DNA from: Clostridiales bacterium
Lineage (GTDB): Bacteria; Bacillota; Clostridia; Christensenellales; Aristaeellaceae
Assembly (NCBI GenBank): GCA_012517815.1
Contig: JAAYUF010000050.1
Span: 5,941 to 69,940 of the forward strand
Direction of reading: 5' to 3'
DNA: 64,000 nucleotides
A model generated the notes under the pieces. The model made no database searches. It saw only the letters and a program-made list of their open reading frames with translations, and was not told the DNA's origin. Positions 32,330 through 64,000 of this stretch are shown here, piece by piece. The position numbers were made by a program, and so were the translations under genes. Position 1 is the first letter of the stretch; each line of letters opens with the position of its first letter.

Positions 32330-32433
32330 GGCGTTACCTCCTGTCGATCTGTGCCGGATTGTCCGCCGGGCCGACGCACCCGTCGCCGCGCGCCGGCAAG
32401 CGTCTGTCCCGCCGGTACGGGCCGTTTTTCGCG

Positions 32434-33453: not shown

Positions 33454-33480
33454 TTTTGCGAAAATTGAGATTTCGGAAAA
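33454..33480. promoter_or_regulatory. pair of AT-rich near-palindromic boxes upstream of the GRE operon (possible AraC-type activator site)
   Basis: TTTTGCGAAAA (33454..33464) and ATTTCGGAAAA (33470..33480), 16 bp centre to centre. They lie 42 to 68 nt upstream of a lone TATACT -10 element (33412..33407, minus strand) that lacks a good -35. Confidence 0.25.
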
Positions 33481-36209: not shown

Positions 36210-36570
36210 CACGTTTTCTCCTTTGCCTGTTGCGGTCCGGAAACCACGATGGACTCCCGACCGGCGGCGCGGCATTGGCACGCCGCCGGTGAGATGTGGC
36301 GATACGCGGAGCGTGACTTGCTCCTGCGGTTGAAACCTTCTTGACAGGTACCCTTGATCGTCCTGCCTGATCGCCGGCTGAATCGGTGGACTTCATCAGC
36401 GGACTTAATCGACGCGCCTGATGGGCGGGCTTCATCCGCGGATACCGTCTGCCCGACCGGCCGGGTTATGAACGTCAGTGCCCGCCGGTGGCCCGGCCGT
36501 CGCGGTTCGCGTATCGGTTCGGCGCGCCGGTCCGGATGAAACCGGCAAGCAGTCGGGAACTGCCGCCCGC

Positions 36571-38172: not shown

Positions 38173-38330
38173 CTTCCATACCCTCCGTTTTGCCCTGCGG
38201 CGCATTCGCGCCGTTTGAAGAACACGCGTCGGCGGTTGCGTCCGCAGGCGCGCGCGGTACCCCGGGTGTTTCGGTTTGGCTGCGTCCGCGGCGTGCCGCG
38301 GACGGGAACCAACCCAAACCCGGCCGCTGC

Positions 38331-39479
38331 TTAAAACTTGTTTTTAAAGCTGGTGATGGTGGTGTCGCTGAAGGCCGCCACATCCTTGGATTTTTCAAAG
38401 AAATGCGGCGCTTTGGCGCGCCACGCACCGGTGTAGTACTCGCTGTCCTTCCCGATGGGAAAGACAACTTCCTGCCCGGTGATGGAGGAGGCGTAAACCC
38501 CGGTGATCAGCTCAATGCAGTTGCGACCGTCCTGCGCGGTTGCCAGCAACGCCTCTTTGCCCTGTACCGCCCGCAGGAAGTTTTGCACCTGACCGTCGTG
38601 GTTTTCCAGCGCCAGCTTGGGCCGACTCTCAAAATCCGCCGTCGCTTCGGCAACCGTCGCTTCGTCCGGCTCGGGGAAGCCGTTGTCGCGCGGCTTGGAG
38701 GCAAACGCCTGAAACGGGATGCGCAGCCCCGCGCGTTCCATCTGGAAGATCAGCGTCTGCGCTTCGCCGTGGGAGATCAGGCTGCTGGTCAGTTCCGCCA
38801 CGCTGCCGTCCGGGTAACGCAGCACGGAAGAAGAAAAGTCCTCCTCCTCCGAATTGTGGTGGTTCAGGTTGGTCATCATGGCGCGGATGGAGGCGGGCAT
38901 GCCTTTGGCCCACAGTAGAAGATCGATGTGATGGATGGAGTGGTTTTGCGTGCAGCCGCCGCCCTCGACCTCCCAGCGGCCGCGCCAGCCCAGGTCGTAA
39001 TAGCTTTCGCCGCGGTACCACACGGAGTGCACGCGCGCGTAGAGGTTCTTGCCGTACGCGCCGCCGCGCACCATATCCAGCACATTGCGAATGCCTGTGA
39101 TAAAGCGGGACTGCACCACCACGGAAAGGAGCTTGCCATGCCTTTCCGCCGCGGCGATGATCTCGTCGCACTCCGCCAGCGAAGGCGCCATCGGCTTTTC
39201 CAGCAGTACGTGGCAGCCGTGTTCCAGCGCGGCGACGGCCGCGTCCCGGTGCAGGCCCGGCGGGGTGCAAACGCTCACCACGTCCGCATCGGCTAGCCCG
39301 TCGTGATAATCCTCGATCGCCCTGGCTTCGGTCAGCCCGTAGCGCTCCATCAGATCCTTCGCGCGTTGGAGGTTCTGATCCGCAAGGCATACGATGGTCG
39401 CGTCTTCGCCGGCGTGCAGGTATCCTTCGATGTGCGCCGGCGCGATGCCGCCGCAGCCGATGATCATGACTTTCAACAA
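38331..39479 (-). CDS. Gfo/Idh/MocA family oxidoreductase
   Basis: KVMIIGCGGIAPAHIEGY Rossmann motif, VLLEKPMAPS. Start placed at TTG 39479, 7 nt after GGGAGGG (the track ORF begins 7 codons earlier). Confidence 0.85.
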   Translation of the reverse strand: MLKVMIIGCGGIAPAHIEGYLHAGEDATIVCLADQNLQRAKDLMERYGLTEARAIEDYHDGLADADVVSVCTPPGLHRDAAVAALEHGCHVLLEKPMAPSLAECDEIIAAAERHGKLLSVVVQSRFITGIRNVLDMVRGGAYGKNLYARVHSVWYRGESYYDLGWRGRWEVEGGGCTQNHSIHHIDLLLWAKGMPASIRAMMTNLNHHNSEEEDFSSSVLRYPDGSVAELTSSLISHGEAQTLIFQMERAGLRIPFQAFASKPRDNGFPEPDEATVAEATADFESRPKLALENHDGQVQNFLRAVQGKEALLATAQDGRNCIELITGVYASSITGQEVVFPIGKDSEYYTGAWRAKAPHFFEKSKDVAAFSDTTITSFKNKF

Positions 39480-39775
39480 GACGAATCCCTCCCGGTACAA
39501 GGTTCATCATGGGTTGGCAGCGCGCCGCCCGCCCCGGCACGGCGATGGATTAAAGCCTGTGGGCGCGGGAAACGGCGTGTTGGAATAATGCAATTCCGCC
39601 GCGCCTCCGGCAGGCGGGGAAAACGGCGCGCCTGAACCAGGCGCCCCGCCGCTCCTCCGCCGGCCGCGCGCGGGAAACCCGCCGGCCTCGGCGGGTTCGC
39701 CCGCAGGGTAACCTGTGCGCGCGGCCGTTTGGCGCCGGGCGAACGCGCGGGCGGCCGATAGCCGCCCGCGCGATG

Positions 39776-51885: not shown

Positions 51886-53022
51886 TTAACCCGCCAGTTC
51901 CCGCACGGCCTCGACCGCGGCATCGATCTCCCGCAGGGTATTCCGCCAGGAAAAGCTGAACCGCACCGCGCCCTGCCCAACGGTTTGCAAAACCTCGTGC
52001 ATGCGCGGCGCACAGTGGGCGCCGGGCCGCGTGGCGATTCCGTAGCTCTCGCTGAGCATATCCGAAACGGCGGCCGAGTCCTCATTCCTGATGTTGATCG
52101 CGACAATCGGCGCGCGGGGTTGACGCGAAAAGTCACCATAAGCGCGCACCCCGCCGATCCCGGCGACCCCCTCCTGAAAACGTCGCGTCAGCGCGGACTC
52201 TGCTTCCATGATGGCGGGCAGGCCGACCTCCGCGATGAGGTCCAGCGCCGCCGAGAGGCCGGCGATGCCGTGCACGTTGAGCGTGCCGGCTTCCAGCCGG
52301 GCAGGGTACTGGGTCGGATGCGCGCGGTCGTAAGAGTGGATGCCTGAACCGCCCACCTTCCAGGGCAGAACCTCCACGCCTTCCCGCACGCAGAGACCCC
52401 CGGTGCCCTGCGGGCCAAGCAGCCCCTTGTGCCCGGTAAAGCACAGAATCCCGATATTCATCGCCGCCATGTCGATGGGCAGCGCGCCCGCCGTCTGCGA
52501 AGCGTCCACAATCAACAGCAGGCGTCGATCGCTCGCAAGCCGGCCGACCGCCGCGATGTCGATCAGGTTGCCCGTCAGGTTGGAGGCGTGCGTGCAGACG
52601 ATCGCCTTCGTGTCCGGCCGGATCAGCCGCTCAAAATCCGTGACCGACACGTTGCCCAGCCTGTCGGCGGCAACGAAATCCACTTTCGTGCGGCCTTCCG
52701 CCTCCAGCCGGTACAACGGCCGCAGCACGGAGTTATGCTCCAGATCGGTCGAAATCACGCGGCCGCCGGCCGGGATCGCCCCTTGGATGGCGATGTTCAG
52801 GGCCTCGGTCGCGTTGGTCGTAAACACCACGCGTTCCGCGCCGCTTGCGTGAAACAGCCCGGCCAGCTTCACGCGGGTATCGTATACCACGCGCGCGGCC
52901 TGCATGGCGCTGCTGTGCGCGCCGCGCGACGCGTTGCCCAGGCTCGCCATCGCTTCCGCGACCGCGGCGATCACCTGAGGCGGCTTGGGCATGGTCGTAG
53001 CGGCCTGATCCAGATAGATCAT
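51886..53022 (-). CDS. class V aminotransferase-fold cysteine desulfurase / selenocysteine lyase family protein
   Basis: Start at ATG 53022 (MIYLDQAATTMPKP...). PLP region CFTGHKGLLGPQGTGGL. Last gene of the selD cluster. Confidence 0.8.
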   Translation of the reverse strand: MIYLDQAATTMPKPPQVIAAVAEAMASLGNASRGAHSSAMQAARVVYDTRVKLAGLFHASGAERVVFTTNATEALNIAIQGAIPAGGRVISTDLEHNSVLRPLYRLEAEGRTKVDFVAADRLGNVSVTDFERLIRPDTKAIVCTHASNLTGNLIDIAAVGRLASDRRLLLIVDASQTAGALPIDMAAMNIGILCFTGHKGLLGPQGTGGLCVREGVEVLPWKVGGSGIHSYDRAHPTQYPARLEAGTLNVHGIAGLSAALDLIAEVGLPAIMEAESALTRRFQEGVAGIGGVRAYGDFSRQPRAPIVAINIRNEDSAAVSDMLSESYGIATRPGAHCAPRMHEVLQTVGQGAVRFSFSWRNTLREIDAAVEAVRELAG

Positions 53023-53217
53023 CGGTATCTTCTCTCCTGTCAAGTCGGCTCGGCGGGGCGGGGGTGCCGCAGAAAAGCGGCGCTTCGCGGGCTTTCGGCA
53101 AGGCGGCGCAAACGGCCCAGGCGGTTTGCCGCGCAGCCAGGCTGCCCGGCGATCCGTAACGACCCGCGCCGGCTCCGTGCGCCGGGAGCCGCCCGCGCCG
53201 TCATGACAGGGCGCCCG

Positions 53218-53454
53218 CTAGCAGCAGAGGATCACTGCTTCCTGCCAGCGCAGCCCGCCGGCTTCCCAGGCCAGGAGCAGGCGTTCCTTCTCCTCGGGCG
53301 GAGCTTTCCACGCAAGGCCGCAGCCTGCCGTGATCTCCCGCGGGACCGGGATCAGCCGCCCCGGCAGCCCCTGCGCCAGGCTGAACCGTTCCGCGGCCAT
53401 CGCGGCGGTGGTGGTGGCGAAGGTGATCACCAGCGCAGGCCGTTTTTCACGCAT
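53218..53454 (-). CDS. DUF3343-like small protein (putative Se/S carrier)
   Basis: 78 aa: MREKRPALVITFATTTAAMAAERFSLAQGLPGRLIPVPREITAGCGLAWK.... Only the last third of the 232-aa track ORF is used; the remainder overlaps yedF out of frame. Confidence 0.6.
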   Translation of the reverse strand: MREKRPALVITFATTTAAMAAERFSLAQGLPGRLIPVPREITAGCGLAWKAPPEEKERLLLAWEAGGLRWQEAVILCC

Positions 53455-53468
53455 CGCGCGTCCCACCC

Positions 53469-54083
53469 TTACGGTTTGATGATCTGATCGGCCTGCGACA
53501 GTTTCTCCACAATCGTGTACATGTTGCTCACGTCGCCGATCCTGAGCCGATCCGTGAGGCCGTAGAAGTTCAGGCACGTGCCGCAGGTAAGGATCTCCAC
53601 GCCCTGTGCCTCCATCGATTTCAGATCCTCCAGCGACGCGGAGCCTTCGCAGGTCAGCGGCGCTCCGCCGTTGTAGAAAAGGATCGTGGCGGGCAGCGGT
53701 TCCGTCTGGCTCAGGGCGTAGAGAAAGCCTTTCATCAGGGCCTTGCCCAGTTCGGCGTCTCCCGTGCCCATCGTGCCGGAGGCAACCGCCACCACCGTCC
53801 GTTTCCCCTGGGCCGGTGCCGGGGCGCAGCATTCGGGCTCCTCGGGAGCCGGCGCCTGTGCGCCTTCCCCAACGGTGAGGGTTACCGCAAACCGTTGGGG
53901 AGCCAGCTTTTCCCAACGCACGCCGTACCCTTTCTGGTTGGCCATCTTAGTCAGGTTCTGCACCGCGATTTCATTGTCCACCGTCGTTTGCACCACGCCC
54001 GCGCCCCGCAACTCACGGATCGCGTTTTTGGTTTTCACCACGGGAATCGGGCACGCGTCGCCGACCGCGTTTACCTGTATCAT
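53469..54083 (-). CDS. yedF: YedF-type selenium metabolism protein (TusA-like N-domain plus DsrE-like C-domain)
   Basis: 204 aa. N-terminal GDACPIPVVKTK (CPxP TusA/SirA motif). C-terminal DsrE-like LFYNGGAPLTCEGS...ILTCGTCLNFYG. Confidence 0.8.
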   Translation of the reverse strand: MIQVNAVGDACPIPVVKTKNAIRELRGAGVVQTTVDNEIAVQNLTKMANQKGYGVRWEKLAPQRFAVTLTVGEGAQAPAPEEPECCAPAPAQGKRTVVAVASGTMGTGDAELGKALMKGFLYALSQTEPLPATILFYNGGAPLTCEGSASLEDLKSMEAQGVEILTCGTCLNFYGLTDRLRIGDVSNMYTIVEKLSQADQIIKP

Positions 54084-54097
54084 CGTTCACACCCCCA

Positions 54098-55135
54098 TCA
54101 TTCCTGGCCTTGGGTCACGGTGATTTCCGTCTCGCCGGGCTGTGTGATTTCCCCTACGATCGCCGCCGGCAGCCCGATGTCCCGGAGCGCCGCGAGCAGC
54201 CGGGGCGCTTCCGCTTCGGGCACGGCCGCGAGCAGCCCGCCGGAGGTCTGCGGGTCAAAAAGCACTTCCTGCATGGCGAAGGACACGCCCTCAAACCGGA
54301 CAAACGGACCCGCGTGGTTGCGGTTGCGCTGCCCGGCCGCCGTCAGCAGAAACTCGTCCGCATACGCCAACGCTTCGGGGAACACCGGCACGCGGTTCGC
54401 GTCGACGCGGCAGGAGAGGCGGCCGTCCATCATCTCGTGCAGATGCCCCAGAAAACCGAAGCCCGTCACATCGGTGCAGGCATGGATCGGAAAGCTTCGG
54501 AAGCATTCCGCGGCGTAGCGGTTGAGCAGCGTCATCGAAGCGGTCGCGTCCCGCATGGCGCTTGGGGAAGCCTCCTGTACGCGGTTGGCCGTGCAGATAA
54601 TCCCCACGCCCAGCCGCTTGGTCAGCACCAGCCGGTCTCCCGGCCGGCCTCCGTTGTTTTGATAAATTTTACCGGGGTGCACCAGCCCGGTCACCGACAG
54701 CCCATATTTCACGTCGGCGTCCGCGATCGAGTGGCCGCCCGCCAGCTGCCCGCCCGCTTCCAGCACCTTCTCCGCCCCTCCGCGCAGGATCTCCCCCAGC
54801 ACGTTCAGATCCATCGTTTCCGGAAAACAGACGATGTTGAGCGCGGTTTTCACGACCCCGCCCATGGCGTAGACATCGCTCAAGGCATTGGCTGCGGCGA
54901 TCTGTCCGAACAGGTAGGGGTCTTCTACCATCGGCGGGAAAAAATCCAGCGTCTGCACCATCGCCAGTTCGTCGGACACACGGTACACGGCGGCGTCGTC
55001 CCGGCTGTCGAACCCCACCAGCAGGTTTGGGTCCGCGGGGCCCTTGGGCAGCCTGTCCAGGATATGGTTGAGCACGCCCGCGCCCAGCTTGGCGGTGCAG
55101 CCGCCGCCCTTGCAGAAGATAATCGGTTCCGGCAC
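54098..55135 (-). CDS. selD: selenide, water dikinase (selenophosphate synthetase), Cys-type
   Basis: 345 aa. N-terminal glycine-rich loop [10 protein letters not shown] (Cys, not a UGA codon). AIR-synthase-like fold DAAVY...DFF, GGHSI. GTG start behind AGGAGG. Confidence 0.9.
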
Positions 55136-55427: not shown

Positions 55428-56345
55428 TTACTGCACGTTGGTGGCGTCGATCACCTGCACGCCGGTGTCCACGTTCTGCTCGGCCAGGGTCTCGCCCGCC
55501 AGCGCCTTCGCGGCGGACTTCATGCCTTCGTAGCCCATCTTGTAGGGATCCTGCGCCATGGTGCACAGGAGGCTGCCGTCCTTGATCAGGCCCAGGATGG
55601 CGTCGCTCTTGTCAAAGCCGACGCCAACGACGGTGCCGCCGGCTTCCTTGATCGCGTTGCCCACGCCCACGGTGCCGCCTTCGTTGGTGCCGAAGATGCC
55701 CACGCAGCCGTCGGTGATGTAGTTGGCGGCGATCTCCTGAGACTTGGTGGCGTTGCCTTCGCCGTACTGTGTTTCGAGGATTTCGAACTTGGTGCCTTCG
55801 AAAGCCTTGCGGAAGCCGGCTTCGCGCTGCACGGTGGAGGTGGTGGCCGCGTTGACGTTCACGATGCCGATTTTGCCTTCGGTCACGCCGTTGGCGGTCA
55901 GTTTGGCCAGCAACTGCTCACCGGCGGTCTGGCCGGCGTTGGTGTTGTTGGTGGCGAGGGTCTGCAGCGCGGGATAGTTGGCGGCGGAGTCCACGTAGAT
56001 GAACTTCACGCCGTCCTTGGTGAGCTGGTCGATGGTGGCAACCTGGGTATCCGGGCCGTTGGAGGCCAGGAGGATCAGGTCGGCGTTGTTGGCGTAGGCG
56101 TTGTTGATGCACTCGATCTGCGCGGCGTCATCCTTGCCGCTGGTGGGCGCGTCCAACTTGTACTCGATGTCGATGCCCTGCGTTTTGAGTTCGGCAACGG
56201 CATCCTGGCAGCCCTTGTCCACGTTGACCCAATGCTGATCCATCAGGTCCATGGTGATCAGGGTGACCTTCGACGCGGCCAAGGCCATCGACGAGGCAGA
56301 GAGCACGAGCATGAGGCACAGAACCATCGCGAGAACCTTCTTCAT
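55428..56345 (-). CDS. sugar ABC transporter substrate-binding protein
   Basis: Start at ATG 56345 (MKKVLAMVLCLMLVLSASSMALA|AS). PBP type I fold. The track ORF has a 77-codon Arg-rich spurious extension. Confidence 0.88.
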   Translation of the reverse strand: MKKVLAMVLCLMLVLSASSMALAASKVTLITMDLMDQHWVNVDKGCQDAVAELKTQGIDIEYKLDAPTSGKDDAAQIECINNAYANNADLILLASNGPDTQVATIDQLTKDGVKFIYVDSAANYPALQTLATNNTNAGQTAGEQLLAKLTANGVTEGKIGIVNVNAATTSTVQREAGFRKAFEGTKFEILETQYGEGNATKSQEIAANYITDGCVGIFGTNEGGTVGVGNAIKEAGGTVVGVGFDKSDAILGLIKDGSLLCTMAQDPYKMGYEGMKSAAKALAGETLAEQNVDTGVQVIDATNVQ

Positions 56346-56401: not shown

Positions 56402-57436
56402 CTACTGTTTGGCCGCGACGGCTTCGGCGACCGCGTCGCGGATCCTGCGGGGCCGCTTGCCGCTGCGCACGATCACGTCCGCCAGCACGGAAATGACCAC
56501 GATCACGCCGATGATGATGTTGCGCAGGGCGACCGGGGCGCCTGCCAGCGAAAGGCCGTTCTGCATCACGCCCCATACGCTCGCGCCCACGATGGTGCCC
56601 AGCAGGATGCCCTGCCCGCCCAGCGTGCTCACGCCGCCGATGACGCTGGCGGCCACGGCGTAGAGCTCGTAGCTCAGGCCCGCGTCCATGGTGCCAAGGC
56701 CGCCCGTGGCGCAGGTAATCAACCCCGCGACCCCGGAGCAGAAGGCGCTGACCATGTACGCCTTGATGACCACCTTGGAGATGTTCACGCCGGAAAGCTT
56801 GGCGGCTTCCAGATTGCTGCCCACCGCGTAGATATGGCTTCCCGTGCGGGTTTTGCTTAAGATGAAGTTAAAAACGAGCCACAGCACAATGGCGATGTAC
56901 ACCGTGGAGTAGATGCCCAGGAACTTGCCGTAGTAGAAGAAGTCCCGGAAAGCCATCGCGCCGTCGCCGATGGCGTCGGTGTTCATGTTGTTGTTCACGA
57001 TCTGCGCGATGCCGCGGGCGATGGTCATGGTGCCCAGCGTCGCGATAAAGGGCGGCAGCTTGCAGTTAATCACCAGCACGCCGTTTAGGATGCCTACCGC
57101 CAGGCAGCTGATCAGGGTGATCGCGCTGGCCAGCCAGGGGTCCATGCCCCGGGTCATCAGGGTGGCGGAAATCATGCAGCTCATGCCCAGCACCGAACCG
57201 ATGGAAAGGTCGATGTTGCCGGTGATGAGCACGTAGCTTTGCGCGATGCCGACAATGAGGAACGGTGCGATCTGCCGCATGAGGTTATTCAGGTTGCGCT
57301 GGGAGGTGAAGTTGGGGTTGAGCAGGGCGAACACCGCGCACAGCACAATCAGGCCGATGGTTACCGTGATTACCTGTCCGGCTCCGCGAACGGTCAGTAT
57401 CCGCTTGAGGGGGTTACGTTTCTGGCTGCTTTGCAT
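56402..57436 (-). CDS. sugar ABC transporter permease (RbsC-type)
   Basis: 344 aa. Motifs TGNIDLSIGS and IGGVSTLGGQGILLGTIVG. Confidence 0.9.
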   Translation of the reverse strand: MQSSQKRNPLKRILTVRGAGQVITVTIGLIVLCAVFALLNPNFTSQRNLNNLMRQIAPFLIVGIAQSYVLITGNIDLSIGSVLGMSCMISATLMTRGMDPWLASAITLISCLAVGILNGVLVINCKLPPFIATLGTMTIARGIAQIVNNNMNTDAIGDGAMAFRDFFYYGKFLGIYSTVYIAIVLWLVFNFILSKTRTGSHIYAVGSNLEAAKLSGVNISKVVIKAYMVSAFCSGVAGLITCATGGLGTMDAGLSYELYAVAASVIGGVSTLGGQGILLGTIVGASVWGVMQNGLSLAGAPVALRNIIIGVIVVISVLADVIVRSGKRPRRIRDAVAEAVAAKQ

Positions 57437-57455: not shown

Positions 57456-58970
57456 TCAAGCTGTCGCGTGGTTGATTTTGGATTCGAAGCGCGTCGCCAG
57501 ATCCATGATCTTTTCCTGGGTCGCCTCGCCGATGGGCAGTTCCCCCGTGATGCGGCCGTCGCACATCACCACGATGCGGTCGCTGATGCCCAAAATCTCA
57601 GGCATTTCGGACGACACGAACAGCACGCCGATGCCCTGGCGCTTCAGCTCGTTCATCAGGTTGTATATTTCCACCTTGGCAGCCACGTCAATGCCGCGCG
57701 TGGGTTCGTCAAACAGCACCATTTTCGAGTGCCGCGCCAGCCATTTCCCCACGACCACCTTTTGCTGGTTGCCGCCCGAAAGGCTCGCCGCGTCCACGTC
57801 CGCGTTGGGCAGCTTGATGCGCAGGTCATGCACGGTCTGGTCCGTCATCGTGCCCTTCTTGCGGCGGTTGACCACCGTAAGCCGGTTGCAGAGTATGTCC
57901 AGATTGGGCAGGGCGATGTTATCCTTAATGCTCAGTTTCACGCACAGACCGTCCCGCTTGCGGTCCTCCGGCACCAGCACGATGCCCGCGCGGATGGAAT
58001 CCTCCGGCCGCCGGATGTTGACATGCTGGCCGCGCAGCCAGATTTCTCCCGACACCTTGGGATCCACCCCAAAGATAGCGCGGGTGGTTTCGGTGCGTCC
58101 GGCGCCCATCAGCCCCGCAATGCCCACGATTTCCCCCTGCCGCACGGAGAGGTTGATATCCCGCACCAGACGTCCGGCGTTCAGGTTTTTCACCTCAAAA
58201 ATGACGTCCCCGGGCTCGCAGTCCACGCGCGGGAACTTTTCCTTGATCTCCCGGCCGACCATGTAGCTGATGATCTCGCGCAGCGACGTGTCCCGGTAGT
58301 TCATGGTGGTGATGTACTGCCCGTCGCGCAGGATGGTCACGCGGTCGGCGATGTACTGCAGCTCCTCCAGCCGGTGGGAGATGTAGATGATGCCGTGCCC
58401 TTCCGCGCGCAGCTTGCGGATGATGGTGAACAGATCGTTGATTTCCTTGGCGGTCAGGGCGCTGGTGGGCTCGTCCATGATCAGCACCTTGGCGTTGGTG
58501 GACAGCGCCTTGGCGATTTCCACCATCTGCTGCTTGGAAAGCTGCAGATCGCCCACGATGGTTTCCGGATCGATATCGATGTTCAGGTGCCTGAGCACCT
58601 CGCCGGCGGCCGCGTTCATCTCGCGGCGGGCCAGACGACCGCCGCGCACGATCTCGCGGCCAAGGAAGATGTTCTCCGCGACGGTAAGGTGCTGGCACAT
58701 GTTCAGTTCCTGATGGATAATGGCGATACCCAGCTCCCGCGCCTTCTGGGGCGTCATGTTTTCCACGGCGTTGCCGTACACCCTGGTGACGCCTTCATCC
58801 TTGGGATAGATGCCGCTGAGGATTTTCATCAGCGTGGATTTGCCCGCGCCGTTTTCGCCAAGCAGGGCCAGCACTTCGCCCGCCTGAAGGTTGAGCTGTA
58901 CGTGATCCAGCGCCTGCACGCCCGGAAAACTCTTACTGACTCCCTGCAGTTCCACCAGATACTCCTGCAT
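57456..58970 (-). CDS. sugar ABC transporter ATP-binding protein (duplicated NBD)
   Basis: 504 aa. Walker A GENGAGKSTLMK and second signature LSGGNQQKVVVGKW. Confidence 0.9.
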   Translation of the reverse strand: MQEYLVELQGVSKSFPGVQALDHVQLNLQAGEVLALLGENGAGKSTLMKILSGIYPKDEGVTRVYGNAVENMTPQKARELGIAIIHQELNMCQHLTVAENIFLGREIVRGGRLARREMNAAAGEVLRHLNIDIDPETIVGDLQLSKQQMVEIAKALSTNAKVLIMDEPTSALTAKEINDLFTIIRKLRAEGHGIIYISHRLEELQYIADRVTILRDGQYITTMNYRDTSLREIISYMVGREIKEKFPRVDCEPGDVIFEVKNLNAGRLVRDINLSVRQGEIVGIAGLMGAGRTETTRAIFGVDPKVSGEIWLRGQHVNIRRPEDSIRAGIVLVPEDRKRDGLCVKLSIKDNIALPNLDILCNRLTVVNRRKKGTMTDQTVHDLRIKLPNADVDAASLSGGNQQKVVVGKWLARHSKMVLFDEPTRGIDVAAKVEIYNLMNELKRQGIGVLFVSSEMPEILGISDRIVVMCDGRITGELPIGEATQEKIMDLATRFESKINHATA

Positions 58971-59040
58971 GCCGTCATCACTCCTGAAGTCTTTCGTCGG
59001 TTGCTATTTCGTTTTTCTAATTTGTCAAACATTTTAACAT

Positions 59041-59069
59041 ATTATAACGAATCGCCTGACACTTGTCAA
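59041..59069 (-). promoter_or_regulatory. consensus promoter of the third ABC transporter operon
   Basis: Minus strand reads TTGACA (59069..59064), a 17-nt spacer, then TATAAT (59046..59041). Confidence 0.7.
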
Positions 59070-59084
59070 GATCGTCCGGTGAAA

Positions 59085-59099
59085 TGCAATCGTTTCCAT
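59085..59099. promoter_or_regulatory. cre-like (CcpA/LacI-type) operator
   Basis: Minus strand ATGGAAACGATTGCA fits the catabolite-responsive element consensus WTGNAANCGNWNNCW at all defined positions. It lies about 16 nt upstream of the -35 box. Confidence 0.4.
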
Positions 59100-59586
59100 T
59101 TTTTGCGGAAGCCTTTTACGTTTCGAAGTCCGGTACGCCCTCCCCCGCGTTGATCCGGCGCGACGAAAGCTTTCCGCTTCGCTCCTCTCCGAGGTTGCGC
59201 GTGTAGGATTGCTTGCCGGACGGATGCCGGCAACGGTCGGCCGCCTGAAGCGTCGCGCTTCGTTCCGCACCCTTCCGGGGCGGGGTAAGCATCCGACGGG
59301 TATCTTGCCTGCGGCCGAGAACCCCTCGCGCAGCAACGGCGGCCGTGTGAAGCACGTTTGCGCGGCCCTTGCGCGCGCCGTTGCGATCCATATGCCGATG
59401 GTGCGACCTCCCTGCCGGATAGCCCGCATTCCCCGGTTTTTACGGCGGTTGGTTCCCTCGCGCCCTTCTGAACCCATCCTACCACAAACCGTCCGGGCCG
59501 GAAACCCCCTGCGCGCCGCTCCGATCCATCCGCGCAACGGAGGGCGGCAGGCGCTGGCCGTTCAGGTTCGGGAAAACCCATCCCTT

Positions 59587-59751
59587 TCGCCCGTCGGCGG
59601 CTTCCTCCGAGGGCGGCTCTCGCCTGTTGGCGGCTTCCTCCGAGGACGGTTCTCGCCCGTTGCCGGCTTCCTCCGAGGACGGTTCTCGCCCGTCGGTAGT
59701 TTCATCCGAGGACGGTTCTCGCCCGTCGGCGGCTTGATACGTTGGCGGCTT
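59587..59751. repeat. 33-bp tandem repeat (4 good copies plus 1 divergent copy; degenerate copies continue to about 59880)
   Basis: Units start at 59587, 59620, 59653, 59686 and 59719, e.g. tcgcccgttgccggcttcctccgaggacggttc. Unit junctions form GACGG-N7-CCGTC inverted repeats. The array is intergenic, immediately 3' of the gene ending at 59884. Confidence 0.85.
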
Positions 59752-59883
59752 CGTTCGCCGGCGGTTGTCGCCCTTCGGCGATCTCATTCATCGGCCGTTA
59801 TCATCCATCGGCGGTTTCAACCCTCGCCGGTTTCATTCGCCGGCGGCTCTCCCCCGTCGGCGGCTTCCCTTCGTCGGCGTCCG

Positions 59884-60957
59884 TCACGACCCGGCGTGCG
59901 TCGGCGGCAGACAGCAGACAGCCTGCAAATGGCCGTCCGATGCCAGCGTCGCCTTGCCCAGCAGGCTGTAGGGAAGGAAGAAGTACGCCCCGCGGCGAAC
60001 CGCCCTCGTCTCGCCCGCCCAACTCAGGATGCCTTCGCCTTCGGTGACGATGTACAGCGCCGGGGCGCGGTCCAGCGTCAGGCAGCCTTGGCCCAGCGTG
60101 TACCGCCAGACGGAGAAGCACGGCGTATCCCGCTCGTCCATCAGGCTTTCCGCCTTGCAGCCGTCCTCCTCCCACAGCGCGCGGGGCGCCCTGCGGGCCA
60201 TGCGGACGGCCTCCGGGCCGGCCAGGGAAAAATCGAAGCAATCCAGCGCCGTATCGGCGTCCAGCCCGACGTACATTTCGGCGTCGGTCAGGTGATAATC
60301 GGCGCACCAGTGCTCCGGCTGGATGGTGAAATCGGTCGGCTCCTGCACCTCCAGCATCAGGCAGCCCGCGCCGATGGCATGCACGCAGCGCGCGGGAATC
60401 AGGTACACTTCACCGGGTTTCACAGGCATGCGGTTGACCAGCGGCACCAGCGCGTCCCGGTCCGTTTCGCTTTGCGCTACCGCTTCGGCAAAGGCTTCCT
60501 TAGTCAACCGCTCGCGGAAACCGAAGTAGATGCAGGCATCCGGTCGGGTTTGCAGCACCAGCCACATTTCCGTTTTCCCAAAGGGGCTGTGGAAATGCCG
60601 GCGGGAGAATTCCGGATCCGGGTGCGCCTGCACAGGCAGGCGAATCGCGCTGTCCAGCGCCTTGACCAACAGCTCAAACCCTTCGCGGGGGCCGAGCAGC
60701 CGGTCGTGTTCCTTCCGTAAAAGCTCCAGAAAGGGGATGTCCGTCCCTTCCACAATGCTGAGCCCTTCGTTGGGGTCGGCGCTGTTTAGGTTCAGCGCGC
60801 GCACCGTAGAGGCGATCCATTCTTCCGGCAGCAGATTGTCCACCGGCTCATCCCCAAAGAAATCGGCAAACAGCTTTCCCCCCGTATAGACGCGCGCCAC
60901 GCGGTTGCGTTTGAAAAAGACAGGCCGGTTTGCCAAAGCTACCCAATCCGTCGGCAT
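59884..60957 (-). CDS. type I phosphomannose-isomerase-like cupin (PMI paralog 2)
   Basis: 357 aa. Motifs EEWIASTV, LPVQAHPD, FGKTEMWLVL, ARCVHAIGAGCLMLEVQEPTDFT. Confidence 0.8.
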   Translation of the reverse strand: MPTDWVALANRPVFFKRNRVARVYTGGKLFADFFGDEPVDNLLPEEWIASTVRALNLNSADPNEGLSIVEGTDIPFLELLRKEHDRLLGPREGFELLVKALDSAIRLPVQAHPDPEFSRRHFHSPFGKTEMWLVLQTRPDACIYFGFRERLTKEAFAEAVAQSETDRDALVPLVNRMPVKPGEVYLIPARCVHAIGAGCLMLEVQEPTDFTIQPEHWCADYHLTDAEMYVGLDADTALDCFDFSLAGPEAVRMARRAPRALWEEDGCKAESLMDERDTPCFSVWRYTLGQGCLTLDRAPALYIVTEGEGILSWAGETRAVRRGAYFFLPYSLLGKATLASDGHLQAVCCLPPTHAGS

Positions 60958-60967
60958 ACAACAATCC

Positions 60968-62338
60968 TTACCCTTCCGCGTTTTGATACGGGATCAGCGC
61001 CTGCGCGTCCTGCGGGGCCGCGTACAGGCCCAGCGTATGCAGCGAGAGCAGCGCCACGCCGTAGGCTGCTTCCTCCTCGTAGAGGGGCACCTGCATGGGC
61101 ATCCCGAAAGCCTCGCTGACGATGCGCCTCAGCAGCAGGTTTTTCCGCAGGCCGTTGCCGGAGCCTACCAGCCTGCGGGCTTCCGCGTGGGCGGGCATGG
61201 CCCGCCAGTAGCCGAGCAGCTCGTCGCAGATGCCGCACAGCACCCCCAGCGTCAGGTGTTCCGGGGTGAACGTATCCAGACCAAGCCCCTGCACGCTCGC
61301 CCGAAGGCTTGCGTCCGCCCGCGTCCCGCACAGGCGGGTATCCACGCGCAGGCCGTTCAGGCGCCCCGGCGCATCGTACAGCGCCTCGGCCGCGGCGTTC
61401 ATCGCCGCGTACAGCGGTCCCGGTTTCACGTTCATCAGGTCGGCCGCGCGCTGGAAAAACCGTTTCAGCGCGGCGTACGCTTCGCCGCCGCACAGGCTGC
61501 AGCCCACGGCCAGCATCCGCCCGCCCAGGTAGGGCCTCGCATCGATGTCCGGGCCGGTTTCGGCGGTGTCGGCGAGCATGGACACCTGCCCGCTTGTGCC
61601 GATGTTGACCAGCACCGCGCCTTCTCCGCTGCCCGAGCCAAAAAACCCGGCCTGATTGTCCCCGATGGCGACCGTGACCGTCTGCCCCAGCGGCGTTTTA
61701 CCCGCGCACACGGGCGCGGTTTCCACAGCGGGCAGCCAGCTTTCGGCAATCCCGGCGGCTTTGAGCATCGGCCGGTCAAACCCGCCGGTCCGCAGGTCGT
61801 AAAGCCCGAAGCCCGCGGCGTTGGTGGCGTGCATGCGGGGCGCGGTTTCCCCCGTCAGGCGCAGGGCGATATAATCGCCGATGGTGCAAAGCTTTGCCGC
61901 GCCGGCCGGTACCGTCCCGTTTTGGAGGTGATGCCAGTGCGTGCAAAACCCGTAGCCCGTCGCCATCGGGTATCCGGTGAGCGCGGAAAGGCGCGCCGCA
62001 TAGCTGACGCCCGTTTCCAGCGGCCGGTTGCCGCGCTCGTCCTGCCAGGTGGCCAGCGGGCTTACGGCCTCGCCGTGCGCGTCCAAGTACAGCATCCCGT
62101 GCATCTGGTTGGAAATCCCGATGCCGGCAACGTCCGGGTACTCGTCTGCCCAGGCGTCCACCAGCGAACGGCAGAGCGTTTCCAGCCTCGCCGGGCTTTG
62201 CAGCCGCTCCCAGGGTTGCGATCCGGGCAGCGCCGCGTCGTTTGGCAGCGTGCGCGATGCGAGCATCCGCCCCGTTTCCGCGTCGACCAGCACACCGCAG
62301 ACGGTGGTGGTGCCGATGTCCAAGCCGATGGTTTTCAT
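60968..62338 (-). CDS. FGGY-family carbohydrate kinase
   Basis: 456 aa. MKTIGLDIGTTTVCGVLVD phosphate-1 loop, GISNQMHGMLYLD, C-terminal GSGNGLRKN. Confidence 0.85.
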   Translation of the reverse strand: MKTIGLDIGTTTVCGVLVDAETGRMLASRTLPNDAALPGSQPWERLQSPARLETLCRSLVDAWADEYPDVAGIGISNQMHGMLYLDAHGEAVSPLATWQDERGNRPLETGVSYAARLSALTGYPMATGYGFCTHWHHLQNGTVPAGAAKLCTIGDYIALRLTGETAPRMHATNAAGFGLYDLRTGGFDRPMLKAAGIAESWLPAVETAPVCAGKTPLGQTVTVAIGDNQAGFFGSGSGEGAVLVNIGTSGQVSMLADTAETGPDIDARPYLGGRMLAVGCSLCGGEAYAALKRFFQRAADLMNVKPGPLYAAMNAAAEALYDAPGRLNGLRVDTRLCGTRADASLRASVQGLGLDTFTPEHLTLGVLCGICDELLGYWRAMPAHAEARRLVGSGNGLRKNLLLRRIVSEAFGMPMQVPLYEEEAAYGVALLSLHTLGLYAAPQDAQALIPYQNAEG

Positions 62339-62351
62339 GCCCGGCCTCCCG

Positions 62352-64000
62352 TCAGCAGGTAGTGGAGCGCAGGTCCAGCCGGGTGATGATATCCTGCTGA
62401 ATCTCCGGGGAGAGGTCCAGAAAGTTGACGAACGTGCCGTGAATGCGCATGATGTACACCCCGTTGGGCGCGTATTTCTTAGGATTGTTCAACACCTTGC
62501 GCAGCATCTCCGGCGTGGTGATGTTCAGGTACAGGTAGAACGGCCCCACGGCTTCCCCGCCGCTAAAGAACAGCGGTTCCATAATCTTGTGCCGGAATTC
62601 CAGCCCCTTCTGGCCGTGCGTGACGCCTCGGAAGTACGCGGGGTCCAGCCCGAAATGGGAGGCGTAGCCGCCGCCGAACTTCTCGTAAGGCAGCCCAAGC
62701 GCGGAAAGCACCCGCAGGCCCAGTCCGTTTTGCGCCTCACCGTACAGGGGATCCACGCCGTAGCCCAGCATGTCGCGCGCCAGCCTGCCGTCGGGCGTCG
62801 CCCCGACCCAATAGCCGTACAGCAGGTGCGTGGACGGGGTGGACCAGTCCGCGCGGAAGGGGTTGCCCAGATAGTTGCGCTGCGCCGTCACAATGTCGGA
62901 GACCCGCGCCGCGACTTCCGCGGCCTCGCGATCCGCCGTAGGGATGTGGTTGCCGAATTTCGGCGCGCGGGACAGGAAATCGCGCAACGCTTCCTGCCCG
63001 GCGAAATTGTCGCGCAGGGCGTCCAGCAGGCGCTGCGCGTCCGCCGGGCGCTCCGCCAGCAAGCTGTCCACGGCGATCAGGCTGTCCGCCACCACGGAAA
63101 GCCCGTGGATCAGGCATCCGCTGCCGTTGTACCGCGTGCCCTGCCGCTTGGGGTCGCGCAGATCGATGCCCGTTTCCTGCCCGCCCATGAAGGCCGACAG
63201 CAAAGGCACCGGCAGGTTGCTCAGCGCCACGGAGGCGCCGTTGGCGGCCTCCGCCATGCGCGCGGCGTAGCGCTCGGCGTTGCGGTAAAACAAATCCCGC
63301 AGGTTGCGCAGCCGTTGGGTCGCGGGCATCCCAGGCGCGATATCTTCGCCCAGGGTTTCCCCGGTGATGAGCGAACGGCCGCCCGTGAGCGTCAGTTCCA
63401 GAATCTTGCCGAGGTTAAGCCAGCTGTTGGTCGTGTTGCCGTTATCCCGCCCCATGATGAGCGGTTCCTGACAGCCGGCCACGGCGTAGTCGGGCAGATC
63501 CTCCGCGCGCACGCCGTGCGCGGCCAGCACCGGGAACAGCGCGTCGTCGTTGAACAGCGAAGGCGTCAGCACGCCCGGGGAGAAGAAGAAGCGGCCCATC
63601 TCCTCGTAGAGCGCGTCCGGCGTATGCGCGTGCAGCTTGACCGACAGGATCGGCTGGGGCATGTTCATGGCGAAATACGCGTCCAGCAGCGCATAGGTGG
63701 TGGGGTTGGTCAGGTCGTTGCCCGCGCCGTCCCGACCGCTGATCAGGATGTTTTGCGAGATGGCCCAGCTGCGGTCCCCCACGTTGAAGAACACCAGAAA
63801 GTGAGCAAGCAGCGCGGCCGTTTCCTCCCGGGAGAGGTTCTCCAGGGCGCGGTAGGGTTCAAAGATGCGGTCCGCGTTGCCCACGGAGAACGCGAAGGGG
63901 TTGGGCGCCTGCTCCAGGCACATCGCCTGCCACAGCAGAAGATAGAGCTGAACGGCGTCCCGAAGGTTCTTGGCGCCGTGACGGGGCGCGGATTCAAGGC
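62352..64000 (-). CDS. glycyl radical enzyme, 5'-truncated by the window edge (C-terminal about 549 codons visible)
   Basis: Glycyl loop YIMRIHGTFVNF (Gly codon 62436..62438). Cys loop AVAGCQEP (Cys codon 63471..63473). Finger GATPDGRLARD. The frame stays open upstream of the track Met to position 64000 (...NLRDAVQLYLLLWQAMCLEQ...). Confidence 0.85.
   Translation of the reverse strand, partial: LESAPRHGAKNLRDAVQLYLLLWQAMCLEQAPNPFAFSVGNADRIFEPYRALENLSREETAALLAHFLVFFNVGDRSWAISQNILISGRDGAGNDLTNPTTYALLDAYFAMNMPQPILSVKLHAHTPDALYEEMGRFFFSPGVLTPSLFNDDALFPVLAAHGVRAEDLPDYAVAGCQEPLIMGRDNGNTTNSWLNLGKILELTLTGGRSLITGETLGEDIAPGMPATQRLRNLRDLFYRNAERYAARMAEAANGASVALSNLPVPLLSAFMGGQETGIDLRDPKRQGTRYNGSGCLIHGLSVVADSLIAVDSLLAERPADAQRLLDALRDNFAGQEALRDFLSRAPKFGNHIPTADREAAEVAARVSDIVTAQRNYLGNPFRADWSTPSTHLLYGYWVGATPDGRLARDMLGYGVDPLYGEAQNGLGLRVLSALGLPYEKFGGGYASHFGLDPAYFRGVTHGQKGLEFRHKIMEPLFFSGGEAVGPFYLYLNITTPEMLRKVLNNPKKYAPNGVYIMRIHGTFVNFLDLSPEIQQDIITRLDLRSTTC

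What the first reader, a model, noticed from the sequence alone, without database searches (positions are those of the whole stretch)
59884..64000. Second, divergent GRE locus: GRE (GCxE type), FGGY kinase and a second PMI-like cupin, with no activase in view
A second GRE (62352..64000, 5' end outside the window) has a canonical AVAGCQEP Cys loop. Its glycyl loop is unusual (MRIHGTFVNF, where most GREs have RV.G[FY]). Its C-terminal region is very different from GRE1, so the two are not recent duplicates. It is followed by an FGGY sugar kinase and a PMI-like cupin that is a clear paralog of the one in the GRE1 operon. Shared blocks are EEWI.S.V, VQ.HPD, GKTE.W, HAIGAGC and E.QEPTD.T. Recurrence of the GRE plus PMI-like pairing twice within 64 kb argues the pairing is functional. 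The isomerase, FGGY kinase and C-x-E dehydratase-type GRE combination resembles the logic of deoxyhexose fermentation (isomerase, kinase, aldolase, then a GRE acting on the C3 diol). However, the isomerase type here is different and no aldolase is adjacent. No activase lies downstream, so it is either upstream beyond 64000 or shared with the activase at 32434..33336.
Basis: partly seen in the sequence, partly recalled or inferred. Interest (0 to 1): 0.68.

Follow-up and report, generated by a model that had tools for sequence, protein, structure and literature searches.

The report
Uncharacterized sugar-linked glycyl radical enzyme module
The locus is a real operon (activating enzyme, glycyl radical enzyme, sugar kinase, sugar isomerase) found in hundreds of gut and rumen anaerobe species and matching no characterized enzyme, so it probably encodes an undescribed oxygen-free radical route for breaking down a small sugar or sugar alcohol.

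Summary
On the minus strand, a 3'-partial GRE (62352..64000) is followed by an FGGY kinase (60968..62338) and a PMI-type cupin (59884..60957).

The "missing" activase lies just past the window end. The source contig shows a divergent ROK regulator, then activase, a 789-aa GRE, FGGY and PMI.

A 19-bp palindrome overlaps the operon's -35 box. A related site follows the -10 box of the adjacent ribose-type ABC importer, and both recur in the 81% relative. The two units therefore look like one ROK regulon.

GRE2 falls far below every NCBIfam cutoff for known GRE functions. It is 22-27% identical to solved GREs. At least 532 species genomes encode a relative.

Across 80 loci, the activase is adjacent in 74/75, FGGY in 64/72 and PMI in 36/68. 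No aldolase, microcompartment or aldehyde dehydrogenase recurs.

GRE2 and its sister clades share GCQEP, VTGH and an R[VI]HG glycyl loop. Sister GREs sit beside canonical xylulokinases. The second GRE in the window also keeps its PMI paralog (14/14 loci).

Best reading: a kinase-coupled, C-O-cleaving radical enzyme acting on a pentose- or pentulose-sized sugar or polyol. The substrate is unknown.

The parts
62352..64000 (-). GRE2, the C-terminal 548 of 789 residues. Cys loop AGCQEP (C417/E419 in full-length numbering) and glycyl loop YIMRIHGTFVNF (G762). The N-terminal 241 residues, the activase and the ROK regulator lie beyond the window end (window-equivalent positions about 64001-66916).
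   Evidence: Full length from L001:7618-9987. Family alignment A1 shows C417, E419, H163 and G762 invariant. AF2 model has pTM 0.86 and TM about 0.8 to solved GREs.
60968..62338 (-). FGGY-family carbohydrate kinase, 456 aa. A divergent xylulokinase-like protein, 13 nt downstream of GRE2.
   Evidence: Pfam FGGY_N and FGGY_C. TIGR01312 XylB at 130 bits, cutoff 380. Best PDB hit is xylulokinase 5vm1, 7.7e-15. Immediately downstream of the GRE in 64/72 loci.
59884..60957 (-). PMI2, a type-I phosphomannose-isomerase-like Zn cupin, 357 aa. Paralog of PMI1 at 28200..29306.
   Evidence: The QxHPD / GKTE / VHA blocks align with B. subtilis PMI 1qwr. Follows FGGY in 36/68 loci.
58971..59883 (.). 913-nt intergenic region separating the GRE2 operon from the ABC operon. 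No called gene and no Rfam family. Contains tandem repeats.
59587..59735 (.). Tandem repeat, 33-nt unit x 4.5 copies, 87% matches. Function unknown.
59041..59069 (-). Sigma-70-type promoter of the ABC importer operon: TTGACA-17-TATAAT, 12/12 consensus matches.
   Evidence: 1 found; 0.3 expected from shuffles. Sequence.
59022..59040 (-). Operator-like half-palindrome ATGTTAAAATGTTTGACAA, continuing as ATTAG, directly after the -10 box. It is related to the perfect palindrome TTGTCAAATCGATTGACAA(ATTAG) that overlaps the -35 box of the activase/GRE2 promoter outside the window.
   Evidence: It is the only match in the 64-kb window (0.07 expected). L001 has only these two sites (0.02 expected). 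Equivalent pairs of sites occur in L003. GTCAA-N5-TTGAC lies upstream of the activase in L004, L007, L009, L041 and L050.
57456..58970 (-). ABC transporter ATPase, CUT2 monosaccharide type, two ABC_tran domains.
   Evidence: Xylose, ribose and arabinose ATPase models score 560-591 bits, below their equivalog cutoffs.
56402..57436 (-). ABC transporter permease (BPD_transp_2, ribose/allose type).
55428..56345 (-). Periplasmic-type sugar-binding protein (Peripla_BP_4). Weakly allose/ribose-binder-like.
   Evidence: 94% identical copy at the same place in L003.

Best explanation
GRE2 is the catalytic subunit of a widespread, uncharacterized family of glycyl radical enzymes. It works as a compact catabolic module with its own radical-SAM activase and an obligate xylulokinase-derived FGGY kinase. 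In about half of the genomes a PMI-type metal-dependent aldose-ketose isomerase is also part of the module.

Proposed sequence in this genome:
1. A ROK repressor, encoded divergently just beyond the window, binds a GTCAA-N5-TTGAC operator. One operator sits at the GRE2 operon promoter and one at the promoter of the neighbouring ribose-type ABC importer. The repressor releases both when the sugar is present.
2. The importer takes up a monosaccharide-sized sugar or polyol.
3. The cupin interconverts its aldose and ketose forms.
4. The FGGY kinase phosphorylates a terminal primary hydroxyl, as XylB does.
5. The GRE abstracts a hydrogen from a carbinol carbon using Gly762 radical to Cys417 thiyl. 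It expels the neighbouring C-O group, either a hydroxyl or a ring or ester oxygen. Glu419 acts as base and His163 as acid.
6. The product is a deoxy-keto sugar phosphate. An aldolase encoded elsewhere can split it.

This is the same logic as the YbiW/PflD 'anhydroglycolysis' pathway.

Shown here: gene content, conservation of the module, catalytic motifs, promoter and operator sites, and non-membership in known clades.

Inferred: the reaction type, the order of kinase and GRE, ROK as the operator-binding protein, and the class of substrate (pentose/pentulose-sized, mannose/lyxose-configured aldose or related polyol or anhydro-sugar). The substrate itself is not identified.
For: GRE identity:
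- PFL-like domain.
- The full-length model has the GRE fold, TM about 0.8 to GD, PD, PflD and CutC.
- C417, E419, H163 and G762 are invariant in 20 diverse relatives.
- By alignment, H163 matches GD His164 and C417/E419 match GD Cys433/Glu435. The 2026 review assigns those residues the acid, thiyl and base roles.
- The dedicated activase passes TIGR02494 (187 bits, cutoff 174) and is adjacent in 74/75 loci.

Kinase as obligate partner:
- FGGY is adjacent in 64/72 loci across genomes of 34-65% GC.
- Sister-clade GREs (32-36% identical, same GCQEP/VTGH/R[VI]HG signature) sit beside canonical XylB kinases, 541 bits against a 380 cutoff.

Isomerase partner:
- PMI2 is present in 36/68 loci.
- A PMI1-type gene lies near GRE2 in L017, L021 and L041.
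- PMI1 is fixed in the unrelated GRE1 module, 14/14 loci.
- The QxHPD / GKTE / VHA blocks align with B. subtilis PMI 1qwr.

Sugar regulon:
- Shared operators lie at both promoters and are conserved in L003.
- The operator motif recurs upstream of the activase in other loci that carry ROK.
- The transporter is CUT2 type.
- In other loci an EamA/DMT transporter sits next to the module.

Precedent: GREs that process sugar phosphates exist, namely YbiW and PflD.
Against: - No substrate is identified, and no aldolase or other downstream enzyme is conserved next to the module. The pathway end is conjecture.
- PMI is absent from about half of the loci, so it may be accessory.
- The kinase could act on the GRE product rather than supply its substrate. 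The only hint for an anionic substrate is a clade-conserved Arg/Lys623 near the strand that carries the sulfonate-binding Arg of the C-S lyases. That alignment is ambiguous.
- The glycyl loop (RIHGTF) departs from the usual RVxG[YFW], and Pfam Gly_radical does not match. Radical formation has not been demonstrated.
- The ABC importer is adjacent in only 2 of 80 loci. Assigning the operator to the ROK protein rests on position alone.
- In many genomes the flanks are housekeeping genes. That would also fit a salvage or repair role rather than catabolism.
Confidence: 0.6

Rival explanations
1. First reader's model. The locus is a variant deoxyhexose (fucose/rhamnose) pathway: isomerase, kinase, an aldolase elsewhere, and the GRE acting as a propanediol-type dehydratase on the C3 diol product.
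For: GRE2 has C-x-E and the His of diol dehydratases. Isomerase plus FGGY kinase is the classic first half of the fucose and rhamnose pathways. An alpha-L-fucosidase lies about 4 kb downstream in one species (L085).
Against: The kinase scores 35 bits on FucK and 19-24 bits on RhaB, against 130 on XylB. XylB-type kinases phosphorylate a terminal primary hydroxyl that 6-deoxy sugars lack (established knowledge of the family). GRE2 is 20-22% identical to PD structures, no closer than to any other GRE. No aldolase, FucO, aldehyde dehydrogenase or microcompartment shell gene occurs in 80 loci.
Confidence: 0.05
2. A Firmicutes version of anhydroglycolysis. 1,5-anhydroglucitol or 1,5-anhydromannitol (or a pentitol analogue) is imported by ABC or DMT transporters, phosphorylated by the FGGY kinase instead of a PTS, and ring-opened by GRE2 to a 1-deoxy-ketose phosphate.
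For: YbiW and PflD show that C-x-E GREs can ring-open anhydro-alditol phosphates. The pyranose-binding ribose/allose-type binding protein would suit a 1,5-anhydro-alditol. XylB-type kinases are known to accept 1-deoxy-xylulose (own knowledge). The module is compact, as in E. coli.
Against: GRE2 is only 26-27% identical to PflD and YbiW. It scores 134 bits on the PflD-type equivalog, cutoff 1109. No FSA-type aldolase is adjacent, unlike fsaA next to ybiW. A PMI-type enediol isomerase has no obvious substrate in that pathway.
Confidence: 0.12
3. A polyol or glycerol-type dehydratase. GRE2 dehydrates glycerol, glycerol phosphate or a C4-C5 polyol (or its phosphate) to a deoxy-aldehyde, for example ribitol-5-P to 2-deoxyribose-5-P. 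The kinase is a polyol kinase.
For: Best sequence and structure match is B12-independent glycerol dehydratase. FGGY kinases include glycerol and erythritol kinases (own knowledge). A GDPD phosphodiesterase is divergent from the module in 5 related loci, and a GlpA-like dehydrogenase trio lies downstream in L085-L087.
Against: By alignment, GD positions 281/282 (His-Ser) correspond to Phe276/Ala277 and GD Asp447 to Thr431 in GRE2. That these positions bind glycerol in GD is from my own knowledge of the structure. TIGR01774 scores 210 bits, cutoff 678. GlpK models score 52 bits, cutoff 590. No 1,3-propanediol dehydrogenase is nearby. The GDPD and Glp neighbours are lineage-restricted. A PMI-type isomerase cannot act on 2-deoxy aldehydes.
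Confidence: 0.12
4. A sulfosugar C-S lyase module. The cupin isomerizes sulfoquinovose, the kinase phosphorylates sulfofructose, and GRE2 eliminates sulfite.
For: A conserved Arg/Lys623 lies near the strand that carries the sulfonate-binding Arg of HpsG, IslA and IseG. Sulfonate mimics the phosphate of PMI substrates.
Against: No sulfoquinovosidase, sulfite exporter or sulfite reductase occurs in 80 loci. Known Firmicutes SQ isomerase (SqvD) and kinase (SqiK) are described as separate, named enzyme families. The Arg alignment is offset and ambiguous. HpsG/HpfG equivalog models score 133 bits, cutoff 1000.
Confidence: 0.04
5. GRE2 is not a functioning radical enzyme. The altered glycyl loop marks a decayed or repurposed protein.
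For: RIHGTF deviates from RVxG[YFW] and Pfam Gly_radical does not match. One distant relative (P0290) has lost the catalytic Cys.
Against: Gly762, Cys417 and Glu419 are invariant, with 74% mean column identity across families. A dedicated activase is adjacent in 74/75 loci. At least 532 species genomes encode a relative of about 60% identity or more in the 80 kept, which indicates strong purifying selection.
Confidence: 0.03

Closest known systems
YbiW / PflD (1,5-anhydroglucitol-6-P and 1,5-anhydromannitol-6-P C-O lyases, 'anhydroglycolysis')
   Same: PFL2-type GRE with a C-x-E Cys loop and the conserved His. A compact sugar-linked operon with its own activase. The substrate is a phosphorylated carbohydrate derivative and the product is a deoxy-ketose phosphate.
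   Different: Only 26-27% identical. Phosphorylation would be by an FGGY kinase, not a PTS. A PMI-type isomerase is present. No adjacent FSA aldolase. The glycyl loop is RIHGTF rather than RVAGYS.
B12-independent glycerol dehydratase (C. butyricum, PDB 1r8w) and GRE propanediol dehydratases (5i2a, 9rco)
   Same: Best sequence and fold matches: E 1e-50, TM 0.81. Cys, Glu and His catalytic triad positions are conserved.
   Different: 22-27% identity. GD positions His281/Ser282/Asp447 correspond to Phe276/Ala277/Thr431. Below the TIGR01774 subfamily cutoff. No 1,3-PDO dehydrogenase, aldehyde dehydrogenase or microcompartment genes.
Classical isomerase-kinase sugar operons (xylAB; D-lyxose isomerase plus xylulokinase)
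   Same: An aldose-ketose isomerase plus XylB-like FGGY kinase under a ROK (XylR-like) repressor, with a CUT2 ABC importer.
   Different: The isomerase is a PMI-type cupin. The kinase is far below the XylB cutoff (130 bits against 380). The third enzyme is a glycyl radical enzyme rather than an epimerase, aldolase or entry into the pentose phosphate pathway.
GRE1 module in the same window (30122..32329 and neighbours)
   Same: Activase, GRE and PMI-type cupin in one operon, conserved elsewhere.
   Different: GRE1 is 23% identical and its Cys loop is GCSWM, with no Glu. There is no kinase. It has an extra cupin-like 254-aa protein, an AraC regulator and an EamA transporter.

Membership tests
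Glycyl radical enzyme superfamily (PFL-like) | PFL-like ten-stranded barrel fold | tested here: met
   PF02901 at E 9e-76. AF2 model has pTM 0.86, TM 0.76-0.82 to solved GREs.
Glycyl radical enzyme superfamily (PFL-like) | Catalytic Cys on the Cys loop | tested here: met
   AGCQEP. C417 is invariant in A1 and aligns with GD Cys433.
Glycyl radical enzyme superfamily (PFL-like) | C-terminal radical-bearing Gly in an RVxG[YFW] loop | tested here: inconclusive
   Gly762 aligns with the radical Gly of GD, PflD and YbiW. However, the loop is RIHGTF and Pfam PF01228 does not match. The radical itself is not testable here.
Glycyl radical enzyme superfamily (PFL-like) | Cognate radical-SAM activase | tested here: met
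   L001:6688-7593 carries CNLRCPWC and scores 187 bits on TIGR02494, cutoff 174. Adjacent in 74/75 loci.
GRE 1,2-eliminases / isomerases (C-x-E class) | Glu two residues after the catalytic Cys, plus the conserved His on the N-terminal loop | tested here: met
   C417-Q-E419, and H163 aligned to GD His164. Roles are as described.
GRE 1,2-eliminases / isomerases (C-x-E class) | Catalysis of C-O, C-N or C-S cleavage next to a carbinol radical | not testable with these tools
   Needs an anaerobic enzyme assay.
B12-independent glycerol dehydratase / PFL2-3 subfamily | Score above the TIGR01774 cutoff, and GD substrate-binding residues | tested here: not met
   210 bits against 678 on the 548-aa partial, which covers model positions 333-783. 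GD His281/Ser282/Asp447 positions are replaced.
PflD / YbiW anhydro-alditol-6-P lyases | Equivalog-level similarity, with adjacent PTS and FSA aldolase | tested here: not met
   NF007437 at 134 bits against 1109. 26-27% identity. No PTS or FSA in 80 loci.
HypD, CutC, HpsG/HpfG, IAD, HPAD, PFL | NCBIfam equivalog cutoff | tested here: not met
   All score 29-133 bits against cutoffs of 994-1150.
Xylulokinase XylB (FGGY) | FGGY N and C domains, and TIGR01312 equivalog cutoff | tested here: not met
   The domains are present but XylB scores 130 bits against 380. It is an FGGY member, not a XylB equivalog. Kinases next to sister GREs do pass, at 541 and 567 bits.
Class I mannose-6-phosphate isomerase (ManA/Pmi) | TIGR00218 cutoff, and conserved metal-ligand blocks | tested here: inconclusive
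   48.5 bits against 116, so the cutoff is not met. QxHPD, GKTE and VHA blocks are conserved relative to PMI 1qwr. Activity on Man6P is untested.

The most novel reading that the evidence does not exclude
The kinase-GRE pair carries out a previously unseen radical step in central-type sugar metabolism. One version is ATP-primed radical elimination, with phosphate or hydroxyl leaving from a pentulose or hexulose phosphate. That would be a radical alternative to aldolase or phosphoketolase cleavage, used by hundreds of gut and rumen Clostridia, including genome-reduced ones. It would define a new functional class of GRE, marked by the GCQEP Cys loop and the R[VI]HG glycyl loop.
Probability: 0.15. 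Interest if true: 0.85.

Novelty: new variant of a known kind. Interest (0 to 1): 0.62.

Why it matters
Glycyl radical enzymes underlie several host-relevant gut microbial activities, including trimethylamine, H2S, p-cresol, hydroxyproline and anhydroglucitol metabolism.

- This family occurs in at least 532 species-level genomes of gut, rumen and digester Clostridia. These include the cultured human-gut organism Ca. Borkfalkia ceftriaxoniphila.
- The family is highly conserved, yet has no assigned substrate in the 2026 GRE review or in the searchable literature.
- Its fixed partnership with a xylulokinase-derived kinase extends to sister clades with canonical XylB. This points to an unrecognized anaerobic carbohydrate route.
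- The locus offers direct experimental handles for finding the substrate: a ROK repressor with a defined operator, a binding protein, a kinase and an isomerase.
- The clade-specific His-Gly-Thr glycyl loop is also of mechanistic interest for activase recognition.

Tried and rejected
- Literature. Searches linking GREs with FGGY, PMI, xylulokinase, pentitols or deoxyribose found nothing relevant. The 2026 GRE review lists no such enzyme. The primary YbiW/PflD paper is not in the library, so the phosphate-binding residues could not be compared.
- Sulfoquinovose. The review shows the Firmicutes isomerase is SqvD, a separately named enzyme, and no sulfo-pathway markers are near the module. The idea was down-weighted.
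- Greedy ORF calling failed on high-GC loci because of antisense ORFs. I switched to tblastn with window proteins and to official gene calls.
- Neighbour census. Clustering and a Pfam census of 99 operon-adjacent proteins found no further conserved partner. GDPD (5), EamA (4), ABC (5) and GH32 (2) are all lineage-restricted.
- 913-nt gap. The Rfam scan found nothing and no intrinsic terminator was detected.
- Fold search. It gave no discrimination among GRE classes; all have TM about 0.8.
- UNK1 of the GRE1 operon has no PDB or confident Pfam match.
- Papers on Ca. Borkfalkia in the library gave no physiology.

Full report

Yes. On the minus strand an ORF with its stop codon at 62352 runs off the window at 64000. 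The 548 residues in view hit Pfam PFL-like at E 9e-76. They contain AVAGCQEP and, near the C-terminus, YIMRIHGTFVNFLDLSPEIQQDIITR.

Thirteen nucleotides downstream starts a 456-aa FGGY kinase (60968..62338). Ten nucleotides after that starts a 357-aa PMI-like cupin (59884..60957).

PMI2 and PMI1 (28200..29306) are 32% identical end to end, E 2e-51. GRE2 and GRE1 are 23% identical.

**2. What lies beyond the window?**

The exact FGGY protein is encoded on a 140.7-kb ENA contig, and also on an independent Logan assembly of the same run (L001, L002). Window position equals 72339 minus L001 position.

Upstream of GRE2 lie a 301-aa radical-SAM activase and a divergently transcribed ROK-family regulator carrying an HTH. 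The activase has CNLRCPWC and scores 187 bits on TIGR02494, above the 174 cutoff. GRE2 is 789 aa in full. The activase is therefore dedicated, not shared with the one at 32434..33405.

**3. Regulation**

A promoter-like TTGACA-17-TATACT overlaps the called activase start, so Met13 is the likelier start. A perfect 19-bp palindrome, TTGTCAAATCGATTGACAA, overlaps its -35 box.

After PMI2 comes a 913-nt gene-free gap with a 33-nt x 4.5 tandem repeat. It has no Rfam match and no detected terminator.

Next is a perfect TTGACA-17-TATAAT promoter at 59069..59041. It is followed at once by ATGTTAAAATGTTTGACAAATTAG, a relative of the palindrome that shares the TTGACAAATTAG tail. This promoter drives a CUT2-type ABC importer: ATPase 57456..58970, permease 56402..57436, binding protein 55428..56345.

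At two mismatches or fewer, these are the only two sites in L001 (0.02 expected) and the only one in the window (0.07 expected). The 81%-identical relative L003 has a site at each equivalent position.

GTCAA-N5-TTGAC also sits upstream of the activase in L004, L007, L009, L041 and L050, all of which carry the ROK gene.

I infer a single ROK-controlled regulon of importer plus GRE operon. Binding itself is untested.

**4. Is GRE2 in a known clade?**

No.
- Every NCBIfam equivalog for a known GRE function scores 29-134 bits against cutoffs of 994-1150. These are HypD, HpsG, HpfG, CutC, PflD-type, PFL, IAD and HPAD.
- Even the PFL2-3 subfamily model reaches only 210 bits against 678.
- The best solved relatives are glycerol dehydratase (E 1e-50), a propanediol dehydratase (9rco) and A. 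fulgidus PFL2.
- PflD and YbiW are 26-27% identical.
- An AlphaFold model (pLDDT 79.8, pTM 0.86) superposes on all GRE classes at TM about 0.8 with 18-23% identity. It shows no preference among them.
- The June 2026 review of the superfamily lists no enzyme with this context. Full-text searches found no paper linking a GRE to FGGY or PMI genes.

**5. The family**

More than 3,400 proteins match at E<=1e-20. The top 120 are all about 790 aa and 62-82% identical. They carry only PF02901 and are named 'hypothetical' or 'PFL family'.

Twenty diverse members share 74% mean column identity. Invariant elements are:
- EQVTGH(163)
- PNPxAFSVGNADR
- AGC(417)QE(419)PL
- DNxNTTNSW
- PSTHL
- YIxRIHG(762)TFVNFLDLSP

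At least 532 species-representative genomes encode a relative. They are mostly Oscillospiraceae, Acutalibacteraceae and other Clostridia from gut, rumen and digesters. Carriers include Ca. Borkfalkia ceftriaxoniphila and isolate PP1C4.

An exhaustive search of 50%-identity representatives shows a tight clade (58-59%). A graded series of sisters follows at 45, 39, 36, 35 and 32-33%, before the general GRE background at 30% or less.

GRE2 and these sisters share GCQEP, VTGH, PNP[YF]AFS, F[RK]xxxSTPSTH and a His before the radical Gly (R[VI]HG). That glycyl-loop variant is seen only in these 9 of about 93 full-length representatives.

**6. Conserved partners**

In 80 species loci:

| Partner | Position | Loci |
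|---|---|---|
| Activase | immediately upstream | 74/75 |
| FGGY kinase | immediately downstream | 64/72 |
| PMI2-type cupin | after the kinase | 36/68 |
| ROK gene | divergent upstream | 14/71 |
| Related ABC importer | adjacent | 2/80 |

A PMI1-type cupin lies beside the module in three further loci.

Flanks are otherwise unrelated housekeeping genes such as carB, pyrC, dnaN and folC. A Pfam census of 99 operon-adjacent proteins found no further recurring partner. GDPD occurs in 5, EamA in 4 and GH32 in 2. No aldolase, aldehyde dehydrogenase or microcompartment shell gene appears.

Sister-clade GREs are also followed by an activase and an FGGY kinase. There the kinase is a canonical xylulokinase, 541 bits against a 380 cutoff. 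One sister locus has ROK plus a GFO/IDH/MocA oxidoreductase. Another has a RihC-like nucleoside hydrolase.

A third GRE type in L063 is likewise preceded by a canonical XylB at 567 bits.

The GRE1 module of this window is activase, GRE1, a 254-aa weakly cupin-like protein, then PMI1. It keeps that order in 14/14 evaluable metagenome loci. The GRE/PMI and GRE/FGGY pairings are therefore selected, not accidental.

**7. Mechanism**

By alignment, Cys417, Glu419 and His163 occupy the positions of GD Cys433, Glu435 and His164. The review assigns these the thiyl, base and acid roles in C-O cleavage.

The GD positions His281/Ser282/Asp447 correspond to Phe/Ala/Thr in GRE2. From my own knowledge of the GD structure these line the glycerol site, so I expect a different substrate.

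The kinase is closest to XylB (130 bits). It is far from FucK, RhaB and GlpK. XylB-type enzymes phosphorylate the terminal primary hydroxyl of a pentulose (established knowledge).

PMI2 keeps the QxHPD, GKTE and VHA blocks of B. subtilis PMI. PMI stereochemistry corresponds to mannose/lyxose-configured aldoses.

I therefore favour this sequence: import, aldose-ketose isomerization, terminal phosphorylation, then radical C-O cleavage to a deoxy-keto sugar phosphate. An aldolase encoded elsewhere would cleave that product. This is analogous to YbiW/PflD anhydroglycolysis.

The order of kinase and GRE, and the substrate itself, are inferences. A clade-conserved Arg/Lys623 lies near the sulfonate-binding strand of C-S lyases. 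This is only a weak hint of an anionic substrate.

**8. Rivals**

- Deoxyhexose/propanediol logic is contradicted by the kinase type, the absence of aldolase, FucO, PduP or shell genes, and the lack of special similarity to PD.
- An anhydro-alditol pathway, a polyol or glycerol-phosphate dehydratase, and a sulfosugar lyase remain possible at low probability.
- A dead enzyme is very unlikely, given invariant catalytic residues and a fixed activase.

**9. Verdict**

This is a divergent GRE with functionally linked kinase and cupin isomerase. The activase question is resolved and the specific pathway guess is not supported.

It is a new functional variant within a known superfamily. It is widespread, uncharacterized and experimentally tractable.

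Noticed in passing
window 59587..59735 (and shorter 16-17-nt repeats up to 59879): A 33-nt tandem repeat, 4.5 copies at 87% matches, lies in the 913-nt gene-free gap between PMI2 and the ABC operon. It has no Rfam match and no gene call. Its purpose is unknown.
   Followed up: partly
window 28200..34733 (GRE1 module); loci L088-L104: Activase, GRE1, a 254-aa protein (weak Cupin_2, E 0.003) and PMI1 form a conserved module in 14/14 evaluable metagenome loci. An AraC regulator, an EamA transporter or a GFO/IDH/MocA oxidoreductase is often nearby. The GRE1 Cys loop is GCSWM with no Glu, so it is not an eliminase-type GRE. No function is known.
   Followed up: partly
window 34815..39500: Hexuronate-type genes lie directly upstream of the GRE1 module on the same strand: UxaC glucuronate isomerase, a mannitol-dehydrogenase-family oxidoreductase and a GFO/IDH/MocA oxidoreductase. 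The same trio lies upstream of GRE1 in L089.
   Followed up: partly
window 51886..55135: A selenium/sulfur-handling cluster lies right after the ABC operon: SelD (AIRS domains), a TusA/DsrE-like protein, a Se_S_carrier (PF11823) protein and an Aminotran_5 cysteine-desulfurase-like protein.
   Followed up: no
L001 6656..6724 (window-equivalent about 65615..65683, outside the window): The called start of the GRE2 activase overlaps its own promoter (-10 box TATACT). The likely true start is Met13, ATG at L001 6724. A perfect 19-bp palindrome overlaps the -35 box.
   Followed up: yes
L063 16735..20853: The same contig as a GRE2 module carries a third GRE type: 754 aa, Cys loop GCGEY, glycyl loop RVGGF. 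It is preceded by a canonical xylulokinase (567 bits on TIGR01312). This is another uncharacterized GRE-kinase pair.
   Followed up: partly
L107/L108 8001..12822; L109/L110 8001..11995: Sister-clade GREs (GCQEP, RVHG) are arranged as GRE, activase, canonical XylB. In another lineage the order is GRE, AraC regulator, RihC-like nucleoside hydrolase.
   Followed up: partly
protein P0290 (representative library): A 39%-identical relative has Asp in place of the catalytic Cys (VVGDELP) and RVPGA in the glycyl loop. It may be a degenerate pseudo-GRE.
   Followed up: no
L045, L047, L064, L066, L074 (upstream of activase); L085-L087 12641..15711: Glycerol-phosphate-related neighbours occur in some lineages. 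A GDPD/DUF4996 phosphodiesterase is divergent from the module in 5 related loci. A GlpA-like FAD dehydrogenase, Pyr_redox_2 and DUF1667 trio lies downstream in another species. A conserved 224-aa protein without domains follows PMI in 20 loci.
   Followed up: partly
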